A stretch of DNA of 32,000 bases from Ktedonobacterales bacterium (lineage in GTDB: Bacteria > Chloroflexota > Ktedonobacteria > Ktedonobacterales > JADMIN01), in assembly GCA_030167145.1 (NCBI GenBank), contig CP126532.1, positions 390,001 through 422,000 of the forward strand, given 5' to 3'. The notes under the pieces are model-generated. The model did not search any database. It had not been told where the DNA came from and saw only the letters and a list, made by a program, of their open reading frames with translations. Position 1 is the stretch's first letter. The number at the start of each line of letters is the position of its first letter. The position numbers and the translations under genes are program-made. Positions 5,925 through 32,000 of this stretch are shown in pieces.

Positions 5925-6215
5925 GTTTCTGCGTTTGAAGGATCAATATGTGAGGTGCGGGCATCGCTGGCTCGAAGACGCTCCACGTTCTCTGCTCCGA
6001 TGCAAAACGCCCCATTTCGTCGAACAATAGCATTCTCACTCAACTTATTGTATTGTATGATCGTATGCAGTTCAGTGACAATTCCATTAACATCGTGTCT
6101 GGTTGTTTCCCAAGCAGAGGCAGTTTGGCATGCCTTTGTCTCTCCCTTCTTCAGAATGTCGTACTATAGGTGAGAGGTGTTCTCTTATCGTGTCCTCGAT
6201 TGCGAGGTGGCGGGA

Positions 6216-10133: not shown

Positions 10134-12761
10134 TCACGCGTGGCGCTTGAGCGGGTGCGGGAGTTCGCGCATGCGTTTCAGCAGGAATATACCGCGCCGT
10201 CTAAGAGAACGCGCATCACACTCTCGCACGGTGTCGAGCGCACGCTCCGCCAGGGCGCACGCGACATCGCACAAGCCTATTTCATAGGCATATTCGGCCT
10301 GCTCTAGGAGTATCTCAGCACTTGTAAACTGGCAGGTGGAATTGCGAACTGTCTCGGCCATTTGTTCGACATAGGATTGTGAGAGGGAGAAGTCGCCCTG
10401 GACACGAGCCAACTGGATTTGTGCTTCAAGCCACAGCGTATCGTTGCGGTGAGCAGACTTGTTGTTGGCTTTGTCTGTCAACAATCGCACGCATCTGGTG
10501 AGATCTTTAAAGGCGGTGGCGTTGTCGCCGCGCAGGCGGGCACATGCGCCGCGCTTGAGGAGCGCCTGCGCCATATCGCGGACATCGTCGCCACGCGCAC
10601 GACTTTCCTCTACGGCGCGCTCCGCGAAGCGCCACGCTGCGTCGTAGTCGCCTTCGTGCTGCGCAAGCTCAATGAGATTATAGAGTGGAGTTGGATACGA
10701 CGATTGATATTCAGATTGCTCAACTATGTCCAGCCCTTCCTCCCATGCGCTGCGTGCGCCTAGCAGGTCGTCCTGATAGTAGCGAACAGTCCCCAGCCGG
10801 TTGAGAAACTCGATGAGATGGAAATGGTCACCCAGTGTAGTGGAAGCATGCACACCACACAGCAGGGTGCGCTCATCTTCAACATAGCCCAGTGACGGCA
10901 TACCAAACGATGAGAGCGTGGCCACCAGGCGCACAACCAGGGCATGCTGCCCAGCGTGCCATACGTGCCAGAGTGCAAGGCGCAGGAGCGCTGATTTAGC
11001 GGCAAGAGCAGGGATATTGTCATTGTAGCGTTCGAGATACGCCAGAGCATACGAACATAAACCTTGCTGAGCCATGTAGAGGGTTGCGGGTTCCAAATGC
11101 TGTGCGCATTCAGCAGCATAGGCTCGTAGCAGCGGATGGAGGCGAAAATGTGTCCCAGGAGGCTGGCCGGGTGCCAATTCGCTCGATTGGCCAACGCTGC
11201 GATTGTCACCGGGTATAACCTCGAGCAAAGAGTGACGTAGTAACTGACCAAGTATTGCGGAGGTCTGCGCCGTCAATGTCTCCGGCTCTTCGCCGATCTC
11301 CCAGAGAGGTGCAGTCCCCGGCATATCGAGGATGGCGAGCGGCTCAGCTGCCCCTCGCGATACTCCCGCGGAAGCATTTCCACCAAGGGGCAGTTGCGGT
11401 AACGCTGGAGGCGTGTCATGGAGCGCAGCAGCGACCTCGACCTCAAATGAGTGATCACCTATCAAGGAGAGTAAGGCAAATCGCCGTCTTGATTCGGGGT
11501 CCAGAGGCTCAAGCGCCTGAACAAGTGTAGCGTGAAGTGCGCCATCGTCGTCTAACAACGCATCGAATGGATGATGGTTCACTTGTCTGGTCAAGAGCGA
11601 GAGCGATACACCGCGAGTACGGATGGCGCTGGCTGCCGCCTCGACGGCGAGGGGCAGCCCGCCGAGCGCGGCACAGAGCTGAGTGGCAAGGATTTGCGCA
11701 TCTTCGCTTAGCTCCTGCCCTACTAGCGAAGTGAACAACGCTACGGCATCTGGCGTTTCAAGCGGAGGAACGTGGATGCAGTGGGTTGAGATAGGCGCAC
11801 GCGGGATATACCGACTTGTGGCTAAAACAACATGTTTGGCATGACTCTCGACTCCAGTCACAACATGTGCCCCACCAATGGTCAATGCCTCAAGCGCCTG
11901 GGATAAGGGGAACCGCGGCTCAAGACCGTCAAGCAGAAGAAGCATGCGCTTGTCCATTAAGACGGCGCGAACGTGGTCTATCGTATGGGCAAGATCATGT
12001 GATGCGAGCGTTCGCCCGTCGAACGCGCCATCGGAAGTCCGCAACCATGCGACTGTTGTTAGCGTCGCATCAAGCGTCTGCGTGCCACCACGGTGCAGAA
12101 GGGATTTTCCTCGGGTGGTGGCGTCCTGTGAAGAATCGAACATTGTGATGATGTCTTGTAACAGCGAGAGGAGGCCATCTTCTCCAATGCGGCCCACACA
12201 GGTGAAGGTGACGATGCCATCAGGAAACAGGTGCGCGTGTTGCTCTCGGTGGCGAGCGAGCACTACGTGCATCGCTTCAGCGGCCAGAGCGCTTTTGCCA
12301 GCGCCGGGCATTCCCGTGAGCACATAGCAGCCTGATTCGACAGTGGTCAACATATGGACGAGATTGTCCAGTATCTCGTTTCTCCCCACCAGTTGTGGGG
12401 GACGCAGCGGCAGCAGAAATGGCGCTGGCCGGTGCGGTGCAGCAAGAGCGCGCTGCAATTGATTTACCTGGTCAGCCTCTTCGGAAGTGAGGTCAGTCAG
12501 TTCAGAGAGGCGAAGGTAGCTACGAACCTGCTGTGGTGTTTTGCACAGCAGCCATGCCAGCGCGAGAACACGCTGACGCACACCACCGCGAAACGGATGC
12601 GCCAACAAACCTGCCTCAAGGCGCGCCATGAATGCCGCAGAGATGCCCTGATTGCCTGTATGGATGTCATATGTCGCCGCGTGTACCAATGCCCTTTGAC
12701 TTGGCCAGCCACATTCACGGCGGCGTTCGCTCAACCAACGACCAAACCGCACCGCATCCAT
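10134..12761 (-). CDS. STAND NTPase: N-terminal XRE-type HTH, NB-ARC ATPase, C-terminal TPR array
   Basis: 875-aa ORF with SD AAGGAG (12770-12775) 8 nt upstream of ATG 12761. HTH-like 'FGRWLSERRRECGWPSQRALVHAA'. P-loop 'GMPGAGKS' at 12291-12314. Walker B 'MLLLLDGLE', 'VVLATSR', and the NB-ARC hallmark 'GGLPLAV' (about 11649-11663). The C-terminal roughly 350 aa are helical repeats with a TPR-like A/L/Y pattern. Confidence 0.85.
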   Translation of the reverse strand: MDAVRFGRWLSERRRECGWPSQRALVHAATYDIHTGNQGISAAFMARLEAGLLAHPFRGGVRQRVLALAWLLCKTPQQVRSYLRLSELTDLTSEEADQVNQLQRALAAPHRPAPFLLPLRPPQLVGRNEILDNLVHMLTTVESGCYVLTGMPGAGKSALAAEAMHVVLARHREQHAHLFPDGIVTFTCVGRIGEDGLLSLLQDIITMFDSSQDATTRGKSLLHRGGTQTLDATLTTVAWLRTSDGAFDGRTLASHDLAHTIDHVRAVLMDKRMLLLLDGLEPRFPLSQALEALTIGGAHVVTGVESHAKHVVLATSRYIPRAPISTHCIHVPPLETPDAVALFTSLVGQELSEDAQILATQLCAALGGLPLAVEAAASAIRTRGVSLSLLTRQVNHHPFDALLDDDGALHATLVQALEPLDPESRRRFALLSLIGDHSFEVEVAAALHDTPPALPQLPLGGNASAGVSRGAAEPLAILDMPGTAPLWEIGEEPETLTAQTSAILGQLLRHSLLEVIPGDNRSVGQSSELAPGQPPGTHFRLHPLLRAYAAECAQHLEPATLYMAQQGLCSYALAYLERYNDNIPALAAKSALLRLALWHVWHAGQHALVVRLVATLSSFGMPSLGYVEDERTLLCGVHASTTLGDHFHLIEFLNRLGTVRYYQDDLLGARSAWEEGLDIVEQSEYQSSYPTPLYNLIELAQHEGDYDAAWRFAERAVEESRARGDDVRDMAQALLKRGACARLRGDNATAFKDLTRCVRLLTDKANNKSAHRNDTLWLEAQIQLARVQGDFSLSQSYVEQMAETVRNSTCQFTSAEILLEQAEYAYEIGLCDVACALAERALDTVRECDARSLRRRGIFLLKRMRELPHPLKRHA

Positions 12762-23604: not shown

Positions 23605-24792
23605 CTACAGCAGTCCAAACAGGTGCGCGCCCAAGAGTCCGCCAGCATAGACGAGAAGCGGAGCGAACGAGAGCAGCAGCATAAGGCGCGCGCGGCGACG
23701 CTGCGCCGGAGATATAGCCAGAGCCTGCGCTAGACCAGTTGGCAACTCAGGAAGCCGCGACCCCTTTCTCACGAAGAGGCGATCTGCCCACGCATCACCA
23801 ATAAAACCACCTGCTGCCCTCCCCAACCGCACCGCGAAGAGTGTCGCGTCTCGCAAGGGCAATCCGGTTCGCGTCACAATCAGCCGCTCAAGATAGGTGG
23901 TATCTCGATCCTCATGCGGACTGCGATAACCAACGACGTATCCCCAAGCCAGGGTAGCATGCCCGCCTTCGAGTATGTACGCTGGCTGTGGTTTGTAGAG
24001 TGTTGGATCTCGGCGATCAATGCGAATGAATGAGCGAACGTCATCCCACCTGACACGCTCGGTTTTCTTGCGGAATCGCCCGTATTGCCAACTCAGCCCA
24101 TCTTCATCAACCAGAAGTGACGGGAACGTAAGGGAAGCCGCCGCAATGGCAACGGAGGTGAGCGCCATACCCAGCGGTATCAGAAGAATACAGTAGAGCA
24201 GAGGTACAGGGCCGATCATGACGCTAGTCATTGCTGAGCGCCCATAGAAAGTGTAAGCAAGTGGCTCAGCATACAAGGGCAAAAAGGCAAATGGTATCAC
24301 GACGAGAGGAAACACGGTTTGATAGGCAAGCATGTGTGTGTCATCAATCCAACGAGGACGAGGGAACGCCGGTGGTTCAGCAGCTAACTCCTCTGGCAGC
24401 AACGATACTGGTTGCTCATCAGCAAGCGGGATGAGCGTGTCATCACCTGATGCAGCAGTCTCGCGCAACGCCCACGATGCCACGATGAATTTTTGGTAAT
24501 GACTGCCGCTCTTAACACTGGCAGCACCCGGAAGCAATAGGAGAGCAAGTCCCAGCATGATCAAATCGCCATTCAAGAAGTAGGCATCATCGTGATTGGC
24601 GTGTGTTAACACGATCCAGATCACTACACCTGTCATAGCGGTCACAATCCGGCCAAGCACGAGCGCGCTGTTCATTTGGTTCGTGACAACACGGAATCTC
24701 TTGGCAGCGTTGCTCCTATCCTGAGCGACAGCGCGCAAGATAGCCTCGCTGTCGTCCAGTGAGATTGCATCATCCACCATTTCACTCGCCAT
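23605..24792 (-). CDS. Polytopic membrane protein with bPH-like (YdbS/YdbT-type) domain
   Basis: Several TM helices are present. 'LLVDEDGLSWQYGRFRKKTERVRWDDVRSFIRI' resembles a bacterial PH (bPH_2) domain flanked by helices. ATG 24792 is preceded by GGGAG at 5-nt spacing and overlaps the upstream gene end by 11 nt. The ORF-track start at 24981 would overlap by 200 nt. Confidence 0.6.
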   Translation of the reverse strand: MASEMVDDAISLDDSEAILRAVAQDRSNAAKRFRVVTNQMNSALVLGRIVTAMTGVVIWIVLTHANHDDAYFLNGDLIMLGLALLLLPGAASVKSGSHYQKFIVASWALRETAASGDDTLIPLADEQPVSLLPEELAAEPPAFPRPRWIDDTHMLAYQTVFPLVVIPFAFLPLYAEPLAYTFYGRSAMTSVMIGPVPLLYCILLIPLGMALTSVAIAAASLTFPSLLVDEDGLSWQYGRFRKKTERVRWDDVRSFIRIDRRDPTLYKPQPAYILEGGHATLAWGYVVGYRSPHEDRDTTYLERLIVTRTGLPLRDATLFAVRLGRAAGGFIGDAWADRLFVRKGSRLPELPTGLAQALAISPAQRRRARLMLLLSFAPLLVYAGGLLGAHLFGLL

Positions 24793-26122
24793 TCTTGCTC
24801 CCGTCACTTCCGCGTGAGTTGCCGGCAGGGAAGCCGCGCCCACTTCTGCCGCGTAACGTCGTCGAGCGGCGATTGGACCTCGGCGGGGGCGGCGGTGGAA
24901 TACGCTCGCCAGGATAGGTGGTCGTTGGCTGTTGCTTGGAGCTGACGATCTCTTGTGTTCGCGAGCGGATATCCCGATCAATGTCGCGTATCTGGCGGCG
25001 CGTGCGCATGAAGATGTAGAGCAGCGCGATGCCCAACGCGCCCACGATGAGAATGTTCACCAGCACCGTCCAGGGGCTGGTGGGCGCACTGGCGATTGGG
25101 GGATAGCGCACGAGGCCGCCCGCGCCCGCGAAGATGACGGGCTGTTGTGATGTGCCGGGCATTACGAGAATTGCTGTGATCTGATGATGCAGTCCCTCGG
25201 CAAGTAATTTCCACGTACGTCCGCCATCTAGCGAGTGGTAGATAGTTGCGTCAGTGCCAGCATAGAGCGAACCAGGCGCCTGCGGGTCCGCCGCGAGCGA
25301 GAGCACACGCCCAGCGGGAATGCCGGTACCCACCGCAGTCCAGGTTTGGCCGCTGTCGGTGCTGGCGAAGAGACCCTTGTTCGTACCCGTGTAGAGCGTC
25401 GGACCAGTGGCATTCAAGCCGTGGTCGGGCAGTTCGATCAGCGCGAACTCCTGTGGCGGAAGACCTGTGCCGCGCGCCGCCCATGACGCGCCACCGTCGG
25501 TTGACGCAAAGAGGCCTACGCCATCCACCGCCGCATAGAGTGTGTGGGTGGCAGCTTGCCAGAAGAGGGTGTTGATGTTGGCATGCGCAGGCAGGTCATT
25601 GCCTGCGGGCTGCCATGTCTGGCCACGGTCGGCGCTCATATACACGCCGTTCTGCGTGGTTCCCGCGAAGAGCGCATGCTGATCGGCGACGTAGAGCAGC
25701 GCGTCCATGCTGTCATCCGATGGGAAACCTTGCCCGCGTGCGCGCCAGGATTCGCCGAAATCCGTGCTCACATAGAGTCCATCGCTGGTTCCGGCATAGA
25801 CGGCGCCGCCCTGTTGGGGGTCGGGAACGAGCGCCAGGATGACGACATTGCTCGGTATTCCCGCGCTCGTCAAAGGCACACGTGTGTGGTCGGAGAGCAC
25901 GCGATACACAATGCCGCTTTGGCCGCCCGCATACACCAGCCGCGTATTGCTGGTATCGCGCGCCAGCGCCAGCACATTCTGCGTGTCTGCATCGGTCATC
26001 TGCTCCCACGCGCCAGCGTTTGTCGCGCTACAGCCTGCCGCCAACAACGCGAACGCCAGCAACGCAAGCAATCCCAGCGCCGAAGCCTTTCGACTTTTTC
26101 GTTTCCGCACATGCGCCCCCAT
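24782..26122 (-). CDS. BNR/Asp-box beta-propeller lipoprotein (Ycf48/sialidase-like fold) with C-terminal TM anchor and Pro/Arg-rich tail
   Basis: Signal peptide with lipobox 'LLAAGC'. Five Asp-boxes fit S-x-D-x-G-x-(T/S)-W: STDFGESW, SADRGQTW, STDGGASW, STDSGQTW, SLDGGRTW. The C-terminal helix is 'VLVNILIVGALGIALLYIF', and the tail contains PPPPPP. An SD AGAGAGG lies 4 nt before ATG 26122. Confidence 0.8.
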   Translation of the reverse strand: MGAHVRKRKSRKASALGLLALLAFALLAAGCSATNAGAWEQMTDADTQNVLALARDTSNTRLVYAGGQSGIVYRVLSDHTRVPLTSAGIPSNVVILALVPDPQQGGAVYAGTSDGLYVSTDFGESWRARGQGFPSDDSMDALLYVADQHALFAGTTQNGVYMSADRGQTWQPAGNDLPAHANINTLFWQAATHTLYAAVDGVGLFASTDGGASWAARGTGLPPQEFALIELPDHGLNATGPTLYTGTNKGLFASTDSGQTWTAVGTGIPAGRVLSLAADPQAPGSLYAGTDATIYHSLDGGRTWKLLAEGLHHQITAILVMPGTSQQPVIFAGAGGLVRYPPIASAPTSPWTVLVNILIVGALGIALLYIFMRTRRQIRDIDRDIRSRTQEIVSSKQQPTTTYPGERIPPPPPPRSNRRSTTLRGRSGRGFPAGNSRGSDGSKNGE

Positions 26123-26143: not shown

Positions 26144-27136
26144 TTACGGCAGAATGTCTAGCTCCTGGCCGAGGCCGCGCTCGCGCGCCAACTCATACAC
26201 GCGCCCCGCTGTCGCGACATCTTCCAGTGCGATTCCCAGCGACTTGAAGAAGGTGATCTGCTCCGCGCTGGTGCGCCCCGGAATCTCCCCCGCGACGATC
26301 TGCCCTAGCTCCACTGCGCGCTCGAAATCGAACTCGCGCCGCGCCGCGGGAATGAGCAGATCGCCCGCCTCGATCTTCGCCTGTTCCAGCGAATCAACGG
26401 CAACGACGGAACTGCGTTCGAGGGTGACGGCATCCACTTCGCGCCGGGTGGCCCAGTTTGACCCCATCGCATTCACGTGCGTGCCTGTCTTCAGCCAGTC
26501 GCCAAGCAGCACCGCATCGCGGGCCGTCGTGGCAGTGGTGACGATATCCGCCTCACGCACCGCCTCTTCGGCGCTTGCCACTGGCGCCATCTCGACGCCG
26601 GTCAGCGCTGTCAACTCCGCGCAGAAGCTCTCGCGCCGGGCCTCGTCACGTCCATACACATACATACGCGCGATTGGGCGCGCAGCACACAGCGCGAGCG
26701 CTTGTGTACGCGCCTGGCCGCCGGTGCCAATCACGCTTGCGATGCGCGCATCCGCACGCGCCATATAGCGTGTCGCGAGACCTGAGGCCGCGCCGGTACG
26801 CATCTGGCCAAGCAGATCAGCTTCGATCAGCGCGAGCAGCCGCCCGTCCGCGCCGGAATAGAGGAGGACGACGAAGCGCACACCACTGGCAAACGCGGTA
26901 TACGCCTTGAAGCCCAGGAGGCCAGGGCCGTCCTGTTCGGGATGGCCCGGCTGGCCGGGCACGTAGGCCGAGAGAAGATGCAACACGCCGCGCGCTTCGG
27001 GCAGCACGATGCGCGAGCGCGGTGTGTTGCGCGCATTGCCCGTCGCCTGATGGCGGAACGCCGCGTCCAGCACGTCGAGTGTGTCGGGCATCGAAAGCAC
27101 AGCGCGCACGTCATCCTCGCGCAGCACCAGCGCCAT
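26144..27136 (-). CDS. Ornithine cyclodeaminase / mu-crystallin family NAD(P)-dependent enzyme
   Basis: 'LREDDVRAVLSMPD.LDVL..AF' is an OCD N-terminus. The Rossmann motif is 'VIGTGGQARTQALAL', followed by 'VNAMGS'. An SD AAGGGAGG lies 7 nt before ATG 27136. Confidence 0.9.
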   Translation of the reverse strand: MALVLREDDVRAVLSMPDTLDVLDAAFRHQATGNARNTPRSRIVLPEARGVLHLLSAYVPGQPGHPEQDGPGLLGFKAYTAFASGVRFVVLLYSGADGRLLALIEADLLGQMRTGAASGLATRYMARADARIASVIGTGGQARTQALALCAARPIARMYVYGRDEARRESFCAELTALTGVEMAPVASAEEAVREADIVTTATTARDAVLLGDWLKTGTHVNAMGSNWATRREVDAVTLERSSVVAVDSLEQAKIEAGDLLIPAARREFDFERAVELGQIVAGEIPGRTSAEQITFFKSLGIALEDVATAGRVYELARERGLGQELDILP

Positions 27137-27166
27137 GGCTGAACCTCCCTTGCATGGGCGTGGACG

Positions 27167-27400
27167 CTATCCGCCGCCCACAGGCGCAAAAAGCTCAAGG
27201 CGGTCGCCTTCGCGCAGTGGAATACCTTCGCGCAGCACCCTGTTGTCCCGGCGCACTAACGGCAGTTCGTCAGGATCAGCACTGAGGGCGTGAGCCAGGT
27301 CGGCAAGTGTCGCGCCATCTGGCAGGTCCACGGTGCGCTCAGGCTGCCCACCAAGAAGATAGCGACGCGGTTCGCCGAAGGCGACAACCGTTACGTACAT
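27167..27400 (-). CDS. ThiS/MoaD-like beta-grasp small protein ending in Gly-Gly-Gly
   Basis: 77 aa ending '...LELFAPVGGG-stop', the size and C-terminal GG of sulfur-carrier/ubiquitin-like proteins. An SD GAGGGGAAG lies 6 nt before ATG 27400 and sits inside the end of the upstream gene, whose stop is at 27403-27405. Confidence 0.7.
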   Translation of the reverse strand: MYVTVVAFGEPRRYLLGGQPERTVDLPDGATLADLAHALSADPDELPLVRRDNRVLREGIPLREGDRLELFAPVGGG

Positions 27401-27402
27401 GG

Positions 27403-28773
27403 TCAGCTTCCCCTCTGGCGAAGCAATTCGTCCAGCGCATCTACGATGATCTGGTTTTCTTCTACGGTGTTGTAGAAATGCGGCGAGATGCGGAGCAGAC
27501 CAGGGCGGTAATCTACCACGATACCACGCTCACTCAGCGCCTTGACCAATTCATCGGGCCGGTCGAGTCCAAGCATGACGATAGAGCTTCGCTGCGTGCC
27601 ATCCAGCGGACTCCGTACCGGCCAGCCCTTTGCCTGGACGCGCCGCACCAGATCGTCAGCCAAGAACATGGTGCGCTCGCGAATGCGCTCAACGCCGATT
27701 TCGAGGATCATATCCAGCGAGGCCGACGCGGTATAGATCGGCGCGATAGCTGGGGTGCCTGCTTCGAGCCGCGAAGCGGTGTCCTTGTACTCAAAATCGG
27801 TGGTGCGAAACTGAAACTGGTCACGAGCGGAGAACCAGCCCGCCACGGTTGGCCGCAACTTCGGGATGAGGTCTTCGCGCACATAGATAAACGCCAGCCC
27901 TGGGCCGCCCATCAGCCATTTAAGCGTGCCGGTGACGAGGAAATCTATACCTAGCGCCTTGACATCAATGGGTATCTGGCCGGTGCCCTGGTAGTCGTCT
28001 ACCAGCAGCAATGAGCCATTGCGGTGCGCCGTCTCCGCGAGCGTTTTGATATCCTGAATATAGCCGCTCAAGAAGAACACGCGCGAGGTGGCGACGAGGC
28101 CGGTGCGGTCATCTATATGCGCGGCAAAGCGCTCGGCGGGGAGGGTGATGCCATCTTCGCTGCGCACAAACTCAATGTCAACGCCGCTCTCTTTTCTGAC
28201 AAGCCACTGGTAGGCGAGCGTGGGAAAGTCCATCTCAGCAAGAACGACCTTATTGCGGTCGCCAAGGTCGAGGCCGCTGGTGATCTCGCTGAGCGCAATC
28301 GAGACGTTAGGGGCGATTGCGATTTCGTGCGGCTGCGCGCCAATCAGCCGCGCGACCTTCTCGCGGACGGCGGCAATCTCGCCAAGCCAGATGCTGTACC
28401 ATGCCTGAGCGCCATGCTCGTTCCAATACTCCTGAAAGCGCGCCATACCAGCCATCGAGCGGAGTGATAGCGGCCCAAGCGAACAGCTATTGAGATACGT
28501 CTTGTGCTGGAGAATCGGGAACTCTTCCCGGTACTTCAGCAGGTCGCGATGTGGCTCGCGCCCAGGCCGCGACGATGTCTTTGGCGATGCGGCGCGCTTC
28601 GTTGAGCCGGTAGTAGAGCTGGTCTTTGCCCGTGTCCGCGCGCCTGCGCTGGCCGAGGAACTGGTCCGCTGCTGCACGTACTGCCCTCTTCTTTCGTGGT
28701 GGAGGATGCCAATCGGCTCCGAATCCGATTGTATCACCATCCGAAACAGGGCATGGACATGTGGGAGAGCCAC
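27403..28773 (-). CDS. Class V-fold PLP-dependent enzyme (kynureninase/epimerase-like, not a canonical cysteine desulfurase)
   Basis: 'YLNSCSLGP' is present. The PLP-lysine region 'VTGTLKWLMGGPG' resembles the kynureninase-type (S/T)xKYLNxGPG motif. 'RLEAGTP' and the C-terminal 'LRISPHFYNT' are also present. The only Cys is in 'NSCSLGP'. The start is uncertain: GTG 28773 (ORF track, no SD) or GTG 28677, which is preceded by AGAAGAGGG (28684-28692) at 6-nt spacing. Either way the N-terminus is Ser/Thr/Arg/Lys-rich low-complexity sequence. Confidence 0.85.
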   Translation of the reverse strand: MALPHVHALFRMVIQSDSEPIGILHHERRGQYVQQRTSSSASAGARTRAKTSSTTGSTKRAASPKTSSRPGREPHRDLLKYREEFPILQHKTYLNSCSLGPLSLRSMAGMARFQEYWNEHGAQAWYSIWLGEIAAVREKVARLIGAQPHEIAIAPNVSIALSEITSGLDLGDRNKVVLAEMDFPTLAYQWLVRKESGVDIEFVRSEDGITLPAERFAAHIDDRTGLVATSRVFFLSGYIQDIKTLAETAHRNGSLLLVDDYQGTGQIPIDVKALGIDFLVTGTLKWLMGGPGLAFIYVREDLIPKLRPTVAGWFSARDQFQFRTTDFEYKDTASRLEAGTPAIAPIYTASASLDMILEIGVERIRERTMFLADDLVRRVQAKGWPVRSPLDGTQRSSIVMLGLDRPDELVKALSERGIVVDYRPGLLRISPHFYNTVEENQIIVDALDELLRQRGS

Positions 28774-28777
28774 ACGG

Positions 28778-30358
28778 CTAGACTTTGGCGCTACGCCATT
28801 TGCCGCTGCGGAAGCGCCAGTAGGTGATACTGGCTTGCGTGCAGTAATCTACCACCATCGCGAGCCGTGCGCCAGGGAGTGCCAGCAGCGGAATGAAGAG
28901 TAGCGCAACCGGCACACGAATGCCCCACGTGCCAGCGGCGCGGACCAGCACCGGGAACTTGGTGTCACCCGCCCCGCGAAGCGCGCCGATGAATACGAAG
29001 GCGATGCCGCAGGCGGGCAGTGTGATGAGCGAGAAGCGGGTGGCGAGGTCGCCCGCATGCAACACGGCGGGATCGGCAATGAAGAGACCCAGCAGAATGC
29101 GTGGAAAGAGACCAGCGAGCAGGCCGACCGAACCAACCATCAACAGGCATGGACGCATAGCTGCCCAAACAGCCCGCGTCGCCAGATCGGGGTCAGCGGC
29201 GCCAAGCGCCTGGCCGACGAGCGTTGTCGTAGCGACGGAGAACCCGAAGCCAGGCAAAGTGCCGATACTCTCGACTGTATTGATGGCAGTGTTGGCCGCG
29301 TAGGCGTCGGCGCCCAGCGGAACCACGACACGCAGAAAGCTGAGAATGCCAATCTGAAACACGGTCAGTTCCGCCGCGGAGGGCAGGCCAACCCGCAATA
29401 CACGGCGCGCCAACGCCACATCGGGCCGCAACGACGAACGGACCAGACGTGGCGCGCGCTTGTGCTCGCGCGTGAGCAGAAACAGCGCCACTATCGCACC
29501 GAGAGTCCAGCCAGTAGCCGCCCCGATAGCTGAACCAAGGACTCCAATGGGGGCAATGCCTAGCGAAGGCACGCCATTCATCAGCGTCCAGGATGCAAGA
29601 ATATTGATGCCGTTGACGAAGAGCATGACACAGAGCGGGCGACGCGCGTCCCCCGCGCCACGCATCGAAGCCGTACAAGCGGACGCGATACCCGTTGCCG
29701 GAAAGCCGAGCGAGTAGAGGCGGATGAAGCTGGCGACGAGGGACGCTTCCTGGCCGGTGACGCCAAGCGCGCGGGTGATGACCTCTGCCATTGGCACGGC
29801 AGCCAGCACCAACAAGAGACCCGCGGTGATGCCCAGCAAGATACCTTGTCCGGCAGCACGTGACGCAAGTCCGCGGTCGTTCGCGCCGGTAGCACGCGCC
29901 ACCAGCGCCGTGACGCCGATATTGATGGCGAAAAAGGATGTCATCACCACCCAGGCCGCCGTCGAAGCCACGCCTACACAGGCGACAGCCGTTGCCTGGC
30001 TGTACCCAAGGAAGGCGATTGCGTGCGCCGTGAGATGGCCGGAGAGAAAGGTGTCGGATGTGCCTACGCCGAGCGCCAGTAGTTGCTCGCCGATGGCTGG
30101 CAGCGCCAACGACCAGACACGTGAACGCAACTCGCGATCAGTTACACTGCTTGCGCTGCCAGTGCTCGTAGCGGTTGCAGCAGGCCCGATGCGGCCGAGC
30201 AAGCGCCGCCAGCGCATACGCTGATGCAGCGCGGCTATGCGCCAGGTAGCCCGGTGACGGGGCGCGGAGGCGCCTAGATGTAGCTTCTTTGTGCGGGACG
30301 AGGAACCAGTGGGGGACGTGGTCGCGCGTAACGGGAGACTGACACGATGCAGACGCAT
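28778..30358 (-). CDS. MATE-family efflux transporter
   Basis: 'LALPAIGEQLLALGVGTSDTFLSGHL' is a MATE N-terminal motif, repeated in the second half as 'VLRVGLPSAAELTVFQIG'. There are about 12 TM helices. The start is uncertain (ATG 30358 or ATG 30217). Neither has a good SD, and about 70 aa precede the conserved core. Confidence 0.85.
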   Translation of the reverse strand: MRLHRVSLPLRATTSPTGSSSRTKKLHLGASAPRHRATWRIAALHQRMRWRRLLGRIGPAATATSTGSASSVTDRELRSRVWSLALPAIGEQLLALGVGTSDTFLSGHLTAHAIAFLGYSQATAVACVGVASTAAWVVMTSFFAINIGVTALVARATGANDRGLASRAAGQGILLGITAGLLLVLAAVPMAEVITRALGVTGQEASLVASFIRLYSLGFPATGIASACTASMRGAGDARRPLCVMLFVNGINILASWTLMNGVPSLGIAPIGVLGSAIGAATGWTLGAIVALFLLTREHKRAPRLVRSSLRPDVALARRVLRVGLPSAAELTVFQIGILSFLRVVVPLGADAYAANTAINTVESIGTLPGFGFSVATTTLVGQALGAADPDLATRAVWAAMRPCLLMVGSVGLLAGLFPRILLGLFIADPAVLHAGDLATRFSLITLPACGIAFVFIGALRGAGDTKFPVLVRAAGTWGIRVPVALLFIPLLALPGARLAMVVDYCTQASITYWRFRSGKWRSAKV

Positions 30359-30551: not shown

Positions 30552-32000
30552 TTATGGTAAGCGTGTGAGTGGCGGCGCGAGCGGCAACTCCAAGGTGAAA
30601 ACCGTGCCAGAACCGGCCTGGCTCTGAACACTCAGTGAGCCGCCGAGCGCCCTGGCGATAGCGTTTGCTATCGGCAACCCCAGCCCAGAGCCTTCTGATC
30701 CAACATGCGCGCGATTCCCGTGCTCTTCGTCCGCGAGCGGCGGAATGGTCGGCGTCGGGCGATTCTGGCTCTGTGCGTGTCGTCGGCCCGTCCGCGCAGC
30801 ACGATAGAAGCGGTCGAAGATATGTGGCAGATCGTCGGGCGCAATACCCTCACCGTTGTCAGAGACGCTGACAATCGCGTTGCGTTCGGTGCGGTGTACC
30901 CACACGCGCACCCATCCGGAGGCATCTTGTCGCCCATATTTCAGCGCATTATCGAGCAGGATGAGCAGTACTTGCTTGAGCCGGTCGGCATCGGCGAGCA
31001 CCTCAAGCCGCCCTGCGCCATCGCCACGCATCGCCACCTCACGCTCGCCAGCGAGAATACGCGCCTGATCCACCGCTTCGCCAACGAGGGCCGTGAGGTC
31101 GAGGCGGCGAACCTCCAGCGGGCGCCCTACATCCAGCCGGGCGAGCGTGAGCAAATCATTCACGAGGCGCGACATGCGCTCAGCCTCGCCACGTACCGCC
31201 AGCAAGACATGCTGGGCAGTTTCCGGGTCATCGCGCACCGCACCGCGCAGCAACACATCCATGTATCCGCGAATGGAGGTAAGCGGAGTACGCAATTCAT
31301 GTGAAGCATCGGCGATGAACTGGCGCATGCGCTCCTCCGAGTGCTGCTGCGCAGCGAACGCGCGCTCGATGCGGGCGATCATCTCATCGAACGAATCGGC
31401 TAGCTGGCCAATTTCATCGCCACCGTGTGGCAGACGAACACGTTGCGAGAGATCACCCGAGGCGATACGGCGCACCGTCGCGGTCATGCGCGTGAGCGGG
31501 CGCAGCGCGCTAGCGGTGAGCGGGCCACCCACCACCACGCCCACGACGAGAATCAACAGCATTGCCAGCAGGAGCAAAATATTCAGATCGGCCAGCGCTA
31601 CGCGGGTCGTCCGGTAGGTGGTGACGACTTCTACGATGCCGAGCGCATTGTTGTTGGCATTGACGCAGCGTGAGACAGTGTTGTAGCGCACAGGAATCAG
31701 AATGATGCCCAGGCGCTGGCCATCTGACCCGGAAGCGTCGTAGCTGACCGTCGCGCCGTTGATCGGGCCAAAGGCGCTGCCCTGGCGCGATTTCGCGACA
31801 GCGGCGAGCGTCTGGCTCAAATGCTTGCGGTCCAGATAGGGGGCATTGTCGCCTACCGGTGTCGCGCCATCTTCAGGAGCAATGACAGCGCCATTGAGAT
31901 CCAGCAGATAGGCTGCCTGAAACGCAGGGTGGCCAACAGTAAGTTGGTTTGCGATAGCTTGTTCGAAAGCCTGCTGATAGCTCAGCGCATCGGTGCAATT
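30552..32000 (-). CDS. Sensor histidine kinase (periplasmic sensor, TM, HAMP, HisKA, HATPase_c); 5'-truncated by the window edge
   Basis: HAMP 'LRPLTRMTATVRRIASGDLSQRV', H-box 'ADASHELRTPLTSIRGY', N-box 'LLDNALKYG', G-boxes 'DNGEGI' and 'GSGLGLPIA'. The ORF track starts at TTG 31820. I translated the frame upstream by hand and it stays open to nt 32000 (...AAYLLDLNGAVIAPEDGATPVGDNAPYLDRKH-), so the gene continues beyond the window. Confidence 0.9.
   Translation of the reverse strand, partial: NCTDALSYQQAFEQAIANQLTVGHPAFQAAYLLDLNGAVIAPEDGATPVGDNAPYLDRKHLSQTLAAVAKSRQGSAFGPINGATVSYDASGSDGQRLGIILIPVRYNTVSRCVNANNNALGIVEVVTTYRTTRVALADLNILLLLAMLLILVVGVVVGGPLTASALRPLTRMTATVRRIASGDLSQRVRLPHGGDEIGQLADSFDEMIARIERAFAAQQHSEERMRQFIADASHELRTPLTSIRGYMDVLLRGAVRDDPETAQHVLLAVRGEAERMSRLVNDLLTLARLDVGRPLEVRRLDLTALVGEAVDQARILAGEREVAMRGDGAGRLEVLADADRLKQVLLILLDNALKYGRQDASGWVRVWVHRTERNAIVSVSDNGEGIAPDDLPHIFDRFYRAARTGRRHAQSQNRPTPTIPPLADEEHGNRAHVGSEGSGLGLPIANAIARALGGSLSVQSQAGSGTVFTLELPLAPPLTRLP

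What the first reader, a model, noticed from the sequence alone, without database searches (positions are those of the whole stretch)
26144..30358. MATE exporter / Cys-less class-V PLP enzyme / GG-terminated beta-grasp protein / OCD-family enzyme: candidate uncharacterised carrier-protein-dependent amino-acid-derived metabolite operon
**Gene arrangement (seen in sequence).** Four same-strand genes are tightly packed.
- MATE stop to PLP start is 4 nt if GTG 28773 is used, or about 100 nt if the SD-backed GTG 28677 is used.
- PLP stop to beta-grasp start is 2 nt, and the SD for the small gene lies inside the PLP gene.
- Beta-grasp stop to OCD start is 30 nt, with a strong AAGGGAGG.

**Unusual features (seen in sequence).**
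- The 77-aa protein ends ...PVGGG-stop. That is a ready-made diglycine C-terminus, as in ThiS, MoaD, CysO, HcyS and QbsE.
- It is not next to thiG/thiF, moaE, or any E1-like adenylyltransferase, rhodanese or JAMM protease anywhere in the 32 kb.
- The PLP enzyme has the class-V fold-type I lysine region (TGTLKWLMGGPG). Its only cysteine is the N-terminal 'NSCSLGP', so it lacks the C-terminal catalytic Cys loop of NifS/IscS/SufS and is unlikely to be the sulfur donor.

**Established precedents.**
- Protein-thiocarboxylate carriers partner with PLP enzymes to build thio-amino acids (CysO-CysM, HcyS-MetY).
- PLP enzyme plus OCD-family enzyme pairs build unusual amino acids (SbnA/SbnB make L-2,3-diaminopropionate).

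**Inference.** This combination plus a dedicated MATE exporter looks like a small pathway making and exporting a modified amino acid, possibly sulfur-containing or cyclic. I do not recognise the arrangement as a described pathway.
Basis: partly seen in the sequence, partly recalled or inferred. Interest (0 to 1): 0.7.

Follow-up and report, generated by a model that had tools for sequence, protein, structure and literature searches.

The report
ThiS-like carrier beside PLP and OCD enzymes
A small ubiquitin-fold "sulfur-carrier-like" protein sits between a PLP enzyme and an ornithine-cyclodeaminase-family enzyme in a clade of uncultured Ktedonobacterales soil bacteria, a pairing I found described nowhere and whose function is unknown, while the neighbouring exporter gene is an unrelated neighbour.

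Summary
MATE, class-V PLP enzyme, 77-aa ThiS/MoaD-fold protein ending PVGGG and an OCD/mu-crystallin-family enzyme lie head to tail on the minus strand, with the stated spacings and family assignments.

- **MATE:** it lies upstream of the PLP gene in 0 of 63 species-representative relatives, so it is not part of a conserved unit.
- **Wider array:** the class-wide Ktedonobacteria arrangement is PLP, Zn-ribbon membrane protein, optional OCD, then a BNR/Ycf48-like protein. An IscS-type cysteine desulfurase often lies upstream.
- **ThiS-like gene:** it is a later, clade-restricted insertion, present in 5 of 56 representative loci. It appears gained once and lost repeatedly, and is under purifying selection.
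- **Partners:** it is followed by the OCD-family gene in 16 of 16 informative loci and preceded by the PLP gene in 14 of 17. ThiS-like/OCD is therefore the invariant pair.
- **Fold:** a confident beta-grasp model, closest to SAMP1 and MoaD.
- **Enzymes:** the PLP enzyme is equidistant from SufS and kynureninase and reaches no curated family threshold. The OCD-family protein lacks the cyclodeaminase residues.
- **Missing parts:** no E1, rhodanese, JAMM or riboswitch was found nearby.

Most likely this is an accessory thiocarboxylate-type carrier serving an amino/imino-acid transformation. The chemistry is unresolved. I rate it a new variant of a known kind, of moderate interest.

The parts
27167..27400 (-). 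77-aa MoaD/ThiS-family beta-grasp protein with a ready-made C-terminal ...ELFAPVGGG. It is the focal, clade-restricted gene.
   Evidence: PF02597 scores 38.9 bits. It falls below the thiS and moaD equivalog cut-offs. The AF2 model has pLDDT 91 with a disordered tail at residues 75-77. Best Foldseek matches are SAMP1 3po0 and mycobacterial MoaD 6jbz_B, TM about 0.8. About 80 homologous clusters have an invariant tail. dN/dS is 0.07-0.3.
27403..28677 (-). 424-aa class-V fold-type-I PLP enzyme, intermediate between SufS and kynureninase. PLP lysine K253 lies in GTLKWLMGGPG. It has no catalytic-Cys loop, and its single conserved Cys65 lies in YLNSCSLG.
   Evidence: Aminotran_5 plus KYNU_C. SufS scores 123 bits against a cut-off of 475, and kynureninase 90 against 246. 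The best PDB sequence match is kynureninase 1qz9, E 4e-29. The AF2 model is equally close to SufS and 1qz9, TM 0.75-0.77. Motif conservation is shown. P0001 is the identical 424-aa public protein.
26144..27136 (-). 330-aa OCD/mu-crystallin-family NAD(P) enzyme. It is closest to archaeal Pyr2C reductase and alanine dehydrogenase and lacks the cyclodeaminase residues. It is the invariant partner of the ThiS-like gene.
   Evidence: PF02423 scores 215 bits. No NCBIfam equivalog cut-off is reached. PDB matches are 6t3e at E 3e-55 and 1omo at E 3e-40. R40/K77/R113 are conserved, and H53/N227/R231 occupy the positions of OCD E56/D228/K232 (PMC4141209). It follows the ThiS-like gene in 16 of 16 informative loci.
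27401..27415 (-). PLP/ThiS-like junction: GAGGGGAAGC TGA CC, immediately before the ATG at 27400-27398. The PLP stop lies 2 nt before the ThiS-like ATG, and the SD-like AGAGGGGA (27410-27417) lies inside the PLP gene. This looks like translational coupling.
   Evidence: Read directly from the sequence. In relatives the spacing is 2-34 nt or a 4-nt overlap (L097).
27137..27166 (-). 30-nt spacer between the ThiS-like and OCD genes, containing AAGGGAGG.
   Evidence: Read directly from the sequence.
24782..26122 (-). 446-aa BNR/Sortilin/Ycf48-like beta-propeller protein with an N-terminal signal/lipobox-like sequence and a C-terminal TM segment. It starts 21 nt after the OCD stop. It is the class-wide syntenic partner of the PLP gene and probably not part of the chemistry.
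   Evidence: Pfam BNR and Sortilin-Vps10, and NF045728. It lies downstream of the PLP gene in 54 of 56 representative Ktedonobacteria loci.
28778..30358 (-). 526-aa MATE transporter. It is adjacent on the same strand but is NOT a conserved member of the unit.
   Evidence: TIGR00797 scores 215 bits against a cut-off of 147. It is upstream of the PLP gene in 0 of 63 representative loci, and otherwise only in the near-identical strain L007.

Best explanation
The locus is a lineage-restricted elaboration of a conserved Ktedonobacteria gene array. That array is [IscS-type desulfurase], SufS/kynureninase-like PLP enzyme, Zn-ribbon membrane protein, [OCD-family enzyme], BNR protein.

In one clade of uncultured Ktedonobacterales, a MoaD/ThiS-type beta-grasp protein with a ready-made GG C-terminus was inserted directly after the PLP gene. 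It has stayed locked to the OCD-family gene ever since.

**Most likely mechanism (inferred, not shown).**
1. The small protein is an accessory C-terminal carrier. It is adenylated, and probably thiocarboxylated, by a MoeB/MoeZ/ThiF-type E1 encoded elsewhere in the genome.
2. It feeds or receives a group in a two-enzyme amino-acid transformation.
3. The class-V PLP enzyme makes an alanine, imino-acid or keto-acid intermediate from a cysteine-like or beta-substituted amino acid.
4. The OCD-family enzyme carries out the NAD(P)-dependent imine/amine redox step. It resembles alanine dehydrogenase and Pyr2C reductase, not a cyclodeaminase.

**Consequences.** The carrier is dispensable: the PLP-OCD pair works without it in most relatives. 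The MATE transporter is an unrelated neighbour.
For: **Shown.**
- The gene is real and constrained.
- It has a beta-grasp fold with a flexible GGG tail, closest to SAMP1 and MoaD.
- The ThiS-like clade is confined to this type of locus in Ktedonobacterales. The next relatives, at 47% identity or less, sit beside 2-oxoacid:ferredoxin oxidoreductase, AOR or Mrp/ApbC genes.
- It lies 2-34 nt after the PLP gene, or overlaps it by 4 nt.
- An OCD-family gene lies downstream in 16 of 16 informative loci, and the PLP gene upstream in 14 of 17.
- In L097 the block PLP, ThiS-like, Zn-ribbon protein, OCD has entirely different flanks.
- On the PLP tree, ThiS-bearing loci include the basal branches of one clade. 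This fits one gain followed by repeated losses.

**Hints of a sulfur link.**
- In the sister clade a bona fide IscS/NifS gene (445 bits to NifS) lies immediately upstream of the same PLP gene in 29 of 63 representative loci.
- The PLP enzyme is as close in fold to SufS as to kynureninase.

**Redox role of the OCD-family enzyme.**
- Its best structural relatives are TlLhpI (6t3e) and AfAlaDH (1omo). The carboxylate-binding residues are conserved and the cyclisation residues are replaced (PMC4141209).
Against: - No E1, rhodanese or JAMM gene was found in the window or in about 110 related loci. This rests on Pfam scans of the larger ORFs and a motif regex written from memory, so it is only a weak negative.
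- The PLP enzyme has no Cys at the SufS/IscS catalytic-loop position, so a classical persulfide hand-off is not possible.
- The carrier was lost repeatedly while PLP and OCD stayed. It also occurs with OCD but no class-V PLP gene nearby (L111, L114). The three-part chemistry is therefore not obligatory.
- More distant PLP homologues (50-55% identity) sit alone among housekeeping genes.
- The most constant neighbours of the PLP gene are membrane or extracytoplasmic proteins with no obvious metabolic role. Conserved order may therefore partly reflect ancestry rather than function.
- No substrate can be named.
Confidence: 0.35

Rival explanations
1. Synteny without shared chemistry. The ThiS-like protein is a general sulfur carrier or ubiquitin-like protein, serving Moco, thiamine, tRNA thiolation or SAMP/TtuB-like conjugation. 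It merely landed in, and is inherited with, a conserved Ktedonobacteria gene array. The PLP and OCD enzymes act independently of it.
For: - The carrier is present in only 5 of 56 representative loci and was lost repeatedly.
- PLP, the Zn-ribbon protein and the BNR protein are conserved together despite having no evident common function.
- No dedicated E1 or protease lies nearby.
- The nearest outgroup carriers are MoaD-like genes beside AOR or oxidoreductase genes.
Against: - The clade is found essentially only at this position, and is translationally coupled to PLP or OCD.
- The block keeps together when the flanks change (L097, L111, L114).
- The protein fails the thiS and moaD equivalog thresholds.
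- No thiG or moaE gene and no TPP or Moco riboswitch is nearby.
Confidence: 0.25
2. The beta-grasp protein is a non-covalent subunit or regulator of the OCD-family enzyme. It would resemble MoaD inserting its tail into MoaE, or a TGS/Ub-like regulatory domain. No thiocarboxylate chemistry would be involved.
For: - OCD co-occurs with it in 16 of 16 informative loci, including loci with no class-V PLP gene.
- Spacing to OCD is tight, at 30-35 nt, where the Zn-ribbon gene is absent.
- No E1 gene lies nearby.
Against: - An invariant exposed GGG C-terminus is the hallmark of activated carriers.
- OCD-family enzymes are not known to need such a subunit, and most OCD genes at this locus lack it (33 of 38 in the representative sample).
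Confidence: 0.12
3. A four-gene operon makes a modified, possibly sulfur-containing or cyclic, amino acid on or with the carrier protein, in the manner of CysO-CysM, HcyS-MetY or SbnA-SbnB. The product is exported through the dedicated MATE pump.
For: - The four genes are on one strand with short spacers and no convincing intergenic terminator.
- Carrier plus PLP enzyme has precedents (established knowledge: CysO/CysM, HcyS/MetY, MetO/MetM).
- The OCD family includes imine reductases for sulfur-containing cyclic ketimines. The mouse CRYM structure 4bv8 is named thiomorpholine-carboxylate dehydrogenase.
Against: - MATE is upstream of the PLP gene in 0 of 63 representative relatives.
- No release protease (Mec+/JAMM) is present.
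- The PLP fold differs from all known thiocarboxylate-using PLP enzymes.
- SbnB-family membership fails, at 99.7 bits against a cut-off of 326.9.
- The carrier is optional.
Confidence: 0.08
4. A thiamine-thiazole variant. The small protein is a true ThiS, and the OCD-family dehydrogenase is an NAD-dependent source of the glycine imine (dehydroglycine). It would replace ThiO or ThiH for a ThiG encoded elsewhere.
For: - thiS is the best NCBIfam hit of the small protein, and JGI names homologues 'sulfur carrier protein ThiS'.
- OCD-family enzymes oxidise alpha-amino acids to imino acids (PMC4141209).
- ThiS-like/OCD is the invariant pair.
Against: - The thiS score of 26.3 is below the cut-off of 37.45.
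- No thiG, thiF or thiE gene and no TPP riboswitch is present in the window or in L029, L097, L111 or L114.
- Most related genomes have the OCD gene without the ThiS-like gene.
- No OCD-family glycine dehydrogenase is known to me.
Confidence: 0.06

Closest known systems
CysO-CysM (M. tuberculosis), HcyS-MetY (Wolinella) and MetO-MetM (Streptomyces): thiocarboxylate-dependent thio-amino-acid synthesis
   Same: A MoaD/ThiS-fold carrier with a GG C-terminus is encoded next to a PLP enzyme. The E1 can be a shared housekeeping enzyme such as MoeZ.
   Different: - The PLP partners there are fold-type II (CysM, the threonine-synthase-like MetM) or the Cys/Met gamma family (MetY). Here it is a class-V SufS/kynureninase-like enzyme.
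- Those clusters carry a Mec+/JAMM hydrolase and usually an E1. None is found here.
- They have no OCD-family enzyme.
- The carrier here is dispensable in sister genomes.
Cysteine desulfurase (IscS/NifS/SufS) to ThiS/MoaD/TtuB sulfur relay
   Same: A class-V fold PLP enzyme lies next to a beta-grasp sulfur carrier. In sister Ktedonobacteria a true IscS/NifS gene lies directly upstream of the same PLP gene.
   Different: - The PLP enzyme here has no Cys at the catalytic-loop position (DYRPGLLRISP against SufS RTGHHCA).
- It scores far below the SufS and IscS cut-offs.
- No rhodanese or E1 is present.
Kynureninase (P. fluorescens 1qz9; TIGR01814)
   Same: It is the best sequence match in the PDB. 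The K(W/Y)L(M/N)GGPG lysine motif, the C-terminal D-Y-R carboxylate-binding Arg and the KYNU_C domain are shared.
   Different: - It scores 90 bits against a cut-off of 246, at about 25% identity.
- It has the SufS-like DDYQ in place of the kynureninase DLAHS.
- No other kynurenine-pathway genes are nearby.
Archaeal OCD/mu-crystallin subfamily: T. litoralis Pyr2C reductase TlLhpI (6t3e) and A. fulgidus alanine dehydrogenase (1omo)
   Same: These are the best structural-database matches (E 3e-55 and 3e-40). The Rossmann motif and the Arg-Lys-Arg carboxylate-binding residues are conserved.
   Different: - The specificity positions are H53/N227/R231, against L/V/A in TlLhpI, R/D/K in AfAlaDH and E/D/K in OCD.
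- No hydroxyproline dehydratase is nearby.
- No equivalog cut-off is reached.
MoaD genes adjacent to aldehyde:ferredoxin oxidoreductase (Iyer, Burroughs and Aravind 2006, PMC1779556)
   Same: The nearest sequence relatives outside the clade are carriers of this kind (P0210 next to AOR). They are stand-alone short MoaD-like proteins encoded away from moaE.
   Different: The partner enzymes differ: tungstopterin AOR, 2-oxoacid:ferredoxin oxidoreductase or Mrp there, against PLP and OCD-family enzymes here.
SbnA/SbnB and CmnB/CmnK (L-2,3-diaminopropionate synthesis)
   Same: A PLP enzyme is paired with an OCD-family dehydrogenase.
   Different: - SbnA and CmnB are fold-type II enzymes.
- The SbnB family model scores 99.7 bits against a cut-off of 326.9.
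- No carrier protein takes part.

Membership tests
ThiS/MoaD beta-grasp superfamily (PF02597) | Sequence match above the Pfam gathering score | tested here: met
   38.9 bits against 22.5, covering residues 9-77.
ThiS/MoaD beta-grasp superfamily (PF02597) | Beta-grasp fold with a flexible C-terminal Gly-Gly tail | tested here: met
   AF2 pLDDT is 91 and residues 75-77 are disordered. Foldseek finds SAMP1, MoaD, Urm1 and ubiquitin, TM up to 0.80. GGG-stop is invariant in the clade.
ThiS/MoaD beta-grasp superfamily (PF02597) | Activation by an E1-like adenylyltransferase and formation of a C-terminal thiocarboxylate | not testable with these tools
   No E1 was found in the 32-kb window or in the related loci. 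The rest of the 5-Mb genome could not be searched, and the modification needs mass spectrometry.
ThiS proper (TIGR01683) and MoaD proper (TIGR01682) | Equivalog score, and a thiG/thiF or moaE neighbour | tested here: not met
   thiS scores 26.3 against 37.45, and moaD 17.7 against 66.15. No ThiG, ThiF or MoaE was found among the scanned window ORFs. No TPP or Moco riboswitch was found.
Type II cysteine desulfurase (SufS/CsdA) | Family score, and a catalytic Cys in the C-terminal loop after the carboxylate-binding Arg | tested here: not met
   sufS scores 122.7 bits against 475.1. The only Cys is residue 65. The loop reads DYRPGLLRISP.
Kynureninase (TIGR01814) | Equivalog score | tested here: not met
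   90.1 bits against 246.4. KYNU_C scores 32 bits against 27, and 1qz9 is the best PDB match, so the protein is related but not a member.
Class-V fold-type-I PLP enzymes (PF00266) | Domain match, PLP-binding Lys and an Asp contacting the pyridine N | tested here: met
   140 bits. K253 aligns with the PLP Lys of SufS and kynureninase, and D228 with their Asp. Both are conserved in 80 or more of 83 sequences.
Ornithine/lysine cyclodeaminase (sensu stricto) | Cyclisation residues Glu56-Asp228-Lys232 (P. putida numbering, PMC4141209), and equivalog score | tested here: not met
   The aligned positions are H53, N227 and R231, with N227 in 62 of 62 homologues. OCD equivalogs score 145-171 bits against cut-offs of 337-350.
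OCD/mu-crystallin superfamily (PF02423) | Domain match and the Arg-Lys-Arg substrate-carboxylate residues | tested here: met
   215 bits. R40, K77 and R113 are invariant in 62 homologues.
   0 of 63 representative loci with at least 2.5 kb of upstream sequence. It appears only in the near-identical L007.
PLP/ThiS-like/OCD triad as a conserved unit | Recurrence in independent genomes, with changing flanks | tested here: met
   - All three genes are present in about 11 independent loci. Three further contigs end before OCD or start after PLP.
- L097 has different flanking genes.
- The triad is nested, however. Among 56 representative Ktedonobacteria loci with the PLP gene, 38 have OCD and 5 of those also have the ThiS-like gene.
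- The ThiS-like and OCD genes also occur without a class-V PLP gene nearby.

The most novel reading that the evidence does not exclude
The ThiS-like protein and the OCD/mu-crystallin-family enzyme form a new kind of carrier-dependent imine/amine redox system. One form would be a thiocarboxylate, or a C-terminally tethered amino acid, processed by an NAD(P)-dependent imine reductase, with the Cys-loop-less class-V PLP enzyme supplying the imino/keto-acid or sulfur-bearing intermediate. The product would be a sulfur-containing or cyclic imino acid. This would be the first functional link between ubiquitin-fold carriers and the OCD family, and the first thiocarboxylate partner with a class-V fold.
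Probability: 0.15. Interest if true: 0.75.

Novelty: new variant of a known kind. Interest (0 to 1): 0.42.

Why it matters
All characterised free-standing MoaD/ThiS-fold proteins with a GG tail are sulfur carriers or protein modifiers. Each new genomic partner has so far revealed new sulfur chemistry, for example cysteine, homocysteine, thioquinolobactin, 2-thiosugars and thio-cofactors.

A carrier clade locked to an OCD/mu-crystallin-family enzyme, and usually co-translated with a Cys-loop-less SufS/kynureninase-like PLP enzyme, has no described precedent in the surveys and literature I could search. If the link is functional, it would extend carrier-protein chemistry to a new enzyme family. 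It would also give a first functional handle on a class-V PLP subfamily that is widespread in Chloroflexota and has no assigned function.

If the link is only synteny, the locus is ordinary. The scores stay moderate for three reasons: the unit occurs only in uncultured soil Ktedonobacterales, the carrier is dispensable, and no substrate can be named.

Tried and rejected
- **MATE as part of the unit:** rejected on synteny.
- **E1, rhodanese or JAMM nearby:** Pfam scans of the main window ORFs found none. The Pfam labels on called genes in L001-L010, L091-L099 and L111-L114 show none. A ThiF/MoeB motif regex, written from memory, over six-frame translations of 100 loci found nothing. The regex is only a weak negative.
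- **Riboswitches (TPP, SAM, Moco, glycine):** none in window 24-32 kb or in L029, L097, L111 and L114 at E up to 1.
- **Promoter and terminator scan:** no sigma-70-like site. The terminator-like hits lie inside genes and barely exceed the shuffled expectation. This says nothing decisive about co-transcription.
- **Assigning the PLP enzyme by structure:** the AF2 model (pLDDT 80) is equally close to SufS and kynureninase, so the fold does not decide its function.
- **More distant PLP homologues:** contexts in Acetothermia and Chloroflexia (L086, L089) are housekeeping genes only and gave no functional clue.
- **Literature:** searches combining ThiS or thiocarboxylate with OCD/mu-crystallin, and for Cys-less desulfurase-like enzymes, found nothing relevant. 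The 2006 beta-grasp neighbourhood survey lists no such context.
- **True cyclodeaminase:** rejected from the residue signature and the equivalog scores.
- **SbnA/SbnB-like Dap synthesis:** rejected because the SbnB score is far below its cut-off and SbnA has a different fold type.
- **Not used:** the exhaustive representative-protein search, because its hits carry no genomic context.

Full report
**1. What is in the sequence**

On the minus strand of window 24.7-31.8 kb there is an uninterrupted same-strand run of genes:
- a histidine kinase (30552-31820);
- a MATE transporter (28778-30358);
- a class-V PLP enzyme (27403-28677);
- a 77-aa ThiS/MoaD-family protein (27167-27400);
- an OCD/mu-crystallin-family protein (26144-27136);
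- a BNR/Ycf48-like beta-propeller protein (24782-26122);
- a 458-aa membrane ORF with no Pfam match (23605-24981).

PLP stop to small-gene ATG is 2 nt, with an SD inside the PLP gene. Small-gene stop to OCD ATG is 30 nt, with AAGGGAGG. MATE stop to PLP start is 100 nt for GTG 28677. That start is the one used by the identical public protein P0001, which comes from a 5.07-Mb contig of a Ktedonobacterales MAG.

The PLP protein has one cysteine, at residue 65 in YLNSCSLG. Pfam scans of the main window ORFs find no ThiF, rhodanese, JAMM, ThiG or MoaE.

**2. The small protein is a real, constrained beta-grasp carrier-like protein**

- It passes PF02597 (38.9 bits) but not the thiS or moaD equivalog thresholds.
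- A profile search finds about 80 clusters at 53% identity or more. All are from Ktedonobacterales-type contigs and all end ELFAP[VI]GGG. Identity then drops sharply to 47% or less.
- Pairwise dN/dS is 0.07-0.3.
- AF2 gives pLDDT 91 with a disordered tail at residues 75-77.
- Foldseek places it with SAMP1, mycobacterial and archaeal MoaD, Urm1, TtuB and ubiquitin, TM up to 0.80.
- The nearest outgroup relatives lie beside 2-oxoacid:ferredoxin oxidoreductase genes, an aldehyde:ferredoxin oxidoreductase (the classic MoaD-AOR pairing) or Mrp/ApbC. The clade therefore derives from generic MoaD-like carriers.

**3. The two enzymes**

*PLP enzyme.* It matches Aminotran_5 and KYNU_C. Its best PDB sequence match is P. 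fluorescens kynureninase (E 4e-29), followed by SufS.
- It reaches no NCBIfam threshold: sufS 123 bits against 475, kynureninase 90 against 246.
- Its AF2 model (pLDDT 80) is equally close to SufS and kynureninase, TM 0.75-0.77.
- It combines a kynureninase-like lysine motif (KWLMGGPG) and C-terminal DYRPG...SPxFYNT with a SufS-like DDYQ.
- The position of the SufS catalytic Cys is not a Cys.
- Its single Cys65 is conserved in 82 of 83 relatives. It lies in the motif that aligns with kynureninase GNSLG. From memory, that motif lines the kynureninase substrate pocket. The detection pattern included this motif, so its conservation is somewhat biased.

*OCD-family protein.* It is closest to T. 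litoralis Pyr2C reductase (6t3e, E 3e-55) and A. fulgidus alanine dehydrogenase (1omo).
- Following the residue scheme of PMC4141209, the carboxylate-binding R40, K77 and R113 are invariant.
- The cyclisation residues of true OCD (E56/D228/K232) are H53/N227/R231 here, with N227 in 62 of 62 homologues.
- It is therefore more likely an amino-acid dehydrogenase or imine reductase than a cyclodeaminase. This is an inference.

**4. Synteny**

I scanned one genome per GTDB species with a PLP profile, which returned 80 loci. I located the window's proteins in them by tblastn.

Among 56 Ktedonobacteria loci with at least 3 kb of downstream sequence:

| Gene downstream of PLP | Loci |
|---|---|
| BNR protein | 54 |
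| 125-185-aa Zn-ribbon plus TM protein | 43 |
| OCD-family protein | 38 |
| ThiS-like protein | 5 |

The Zn-ribbon protein is absent from the window.

Among 63 loci with at least 2.5 kb of upstream sequence:
- MATE is present in 0;
- a bona fide IscS/NifS cysteine desulfurase is present in 29, often preceded by a group II decarboxylase;
- a divergent nickel-pincer-nucleotide-type ornithine cyclodeaminase is present in 6.

More distant PLP homologues (50-55% identity, from Acetothermia and Chloroflexia) stand alone among housekeeping genes.

On a PLP neighbour-joining tree, the ThiS-bearing loci all fall in one clade of uncultured Ktedonobacterales, including its basal branches. Loci lacking the gene are interspersed among them. 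This fits one gain followed by repeated losses.

**5. What the ThiS-like gene is tied to**

I pooled the genome loci, a metagenome scan with the ThiS profile and direct look-ups. This gives about 19 independent ThiS-clade loci.
- Where enough sequence is available, the OCD-family gene follows in 16 of 16. It follows either directly or after the Zn-ribbon gene.
- The class-V PLP gene precedes in 14 of 17, at 2-34 nt or with a 4-nt overlap.
- Exceptions: L108/L111 (ThiS-like, Zn-ribbon, OCD, BNR, with a divergent class I/II aminotransferase upstream and no class-V gene within 10 kb); L114 (ThiS-like then OCD); and L102 (next to a DNA methyltransferase, with a short contig).
- In L097 the block PLP, ThiS-like, Zn-ribbon, OCD has entirely different flanks and no BNR gene.

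The invariant pair is therefore ThiS-like plus OCD. The triad is common but not obligatory, and the MATE gene is a chance neighbour.

**6. Interpretation**

All characterised free-standing GG-tailed MoaD/ThiS proteins are activated at the C-terminus by an E1 and then act as thiocarboxylate sulfur carriers or protein modifiers. This is established knowledge. Shared housekeeping E1s such as MoeZ are well documented, so the absence of a local E1 is not decisive.

Several observations make a functional link more likely than chance parking: the clade's confinement to this locus, its translational coupling, purifying selection, and co-migration with OCD (and usually PLP).

Two observations give a modest hint of sulfur chemistry. 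An IscS gene lies next to the same PLP gene in the sister clade, and the PLP enzyme has SufS-like features.

Against a defined pathway:
- the carrier is dispensable;
- the PLP enzyme cannot form a classical loop persulfide;
- no release protease is present;
- the PLP gene's most constant neighbours are membrane or extracytoplasmic proteins;
- no substrate can be named.

I therefore commit, at about 0.35, to an accessory thiocarboxylate-type carrier that serves an amino/imino-acid transformation by the PLP and OCD-family enzymes. The rivals, with their confidences, are:
- synteny only (0.25);
- a non-covalent subunit or regulator of the OCD-family enzyme (0.12);
- a ThiS plus dehydroglycine-forming dehydrogenase variant (0.06).

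No TPP, SAM, Moco or glycine riboswitch supports any cofactor link.

**7. Novelty**

The open-access literature I could search holds no paper linking thiocarboxylate carriers with OCD/mu-crystallin enzymes. The systematic beta-grasp neighbourhood survey, PMC1779556, lists no such context. All component families are known.

The finding is a new genomic variant of a known kind of system, in uncultured bacteria, with unresolved chemistry. Interest is moderate (0.42). The most novel reading that the evidence does not exclude is a carrier-dependent imine-redox system. It has about 0.15 probability and would merit about 0.75 if true.

Noticed in passing
L017, L019, L020, L024-L026, L029, L034, L039-L083, L097 (e.g. 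L072:8248-8628, L097:8320-8829); absent from the window: A family of 125-185-aa proteins occupies the slot right after the PLP (or ThiS-like) gene in 43 of 56 representative Ktedonobacteria loci. Each has an N-terminal Zn-ribbon (CPxC...CxxCG), one TM helix (GVGAVALGVGIELLRR) and a conserved C-terminus (KGYEVxETVVYMRRVIRR). The two members scanned (L067, L097) match no NCBIfam family.
   Followed up: partly
L038-L079 and L088 (e.g. L067:5437-6621 and L067:3749-5368): In Ktedonobacteraceae, Thermogemmatispora and Dictyobacter genomes, a bona fide IscS/NifS cysteine desulfurase (445 bits to NifS) lies immediately upstream of the Cys-loop-less PLP gene on the same strand. A group II decarboxylase (DABA/PanP-like) often precedes it. 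None of the ThiS-bearing loci sampled has this IscS gene.
   Followed up: partly
L005:6591-7811 (-), and also L021, L022, L030, L031, L035-L037: Loci with PLP followed directly by OCD, lacking both the ThiS-like and Zn-ribbon genes, carry a divergent nickel-pincer-nucleotide-dependent ornithine cyclodeaminase. TIGR00300 scores 489 bits against a cut-off of 411. Two unrelated 'OCD' types are thus side by side.
   Followed up: partly
window 27100-27700 compared with L007: The window and the near-identical strain L007 are mostly about 90-95% identical in DNA across MATE, PLP, OCD and BNR. Identity falls to 78-88% over the 3' end of the PLP gene and the ThiS-like gene, where the protein is 83% identical against 96-99% for its neighbours. 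This could be a local recombination patch or relaxed constraint.
   Followed up: no
window 24782-26122 (-): A BNR/Sortilin/Ycf48-like beta-propeller protein has a lipoprotein-like N-terminus and a C-terminal TM segment with a Pro/Arg-rich tail. It starts 21 nt after the OCD stop and is the most constant neighbour of the PLP gene across the class Ktedonobacteria.
   Followed up: partly
L102:842-2041 (-) and L102:2679-2912 (+): One ThiS-clade gene sits next to a DNA cytosine-5 methyltransferase, with no PLP gene upstream. This may be a rearranged or mobile context.
   Followed up: no
window 23605-24981 (-): A 458-aa multi-TM ORF with no Pfam match overlaps the end of the BNR gene if its TTG start is used. 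Homologues follow the BNR gene in L007 and L013.
   Followed up: no
window 6177-8759 (+) and 10134-12761 (-): A TrwB/HerA-like coupling-ATPase-type protein (860 aa) and an NB-ARC/AAA_16 plus TPR STAND-type protein (875 aa) lie elsewhere in the window.
   Followed up: no
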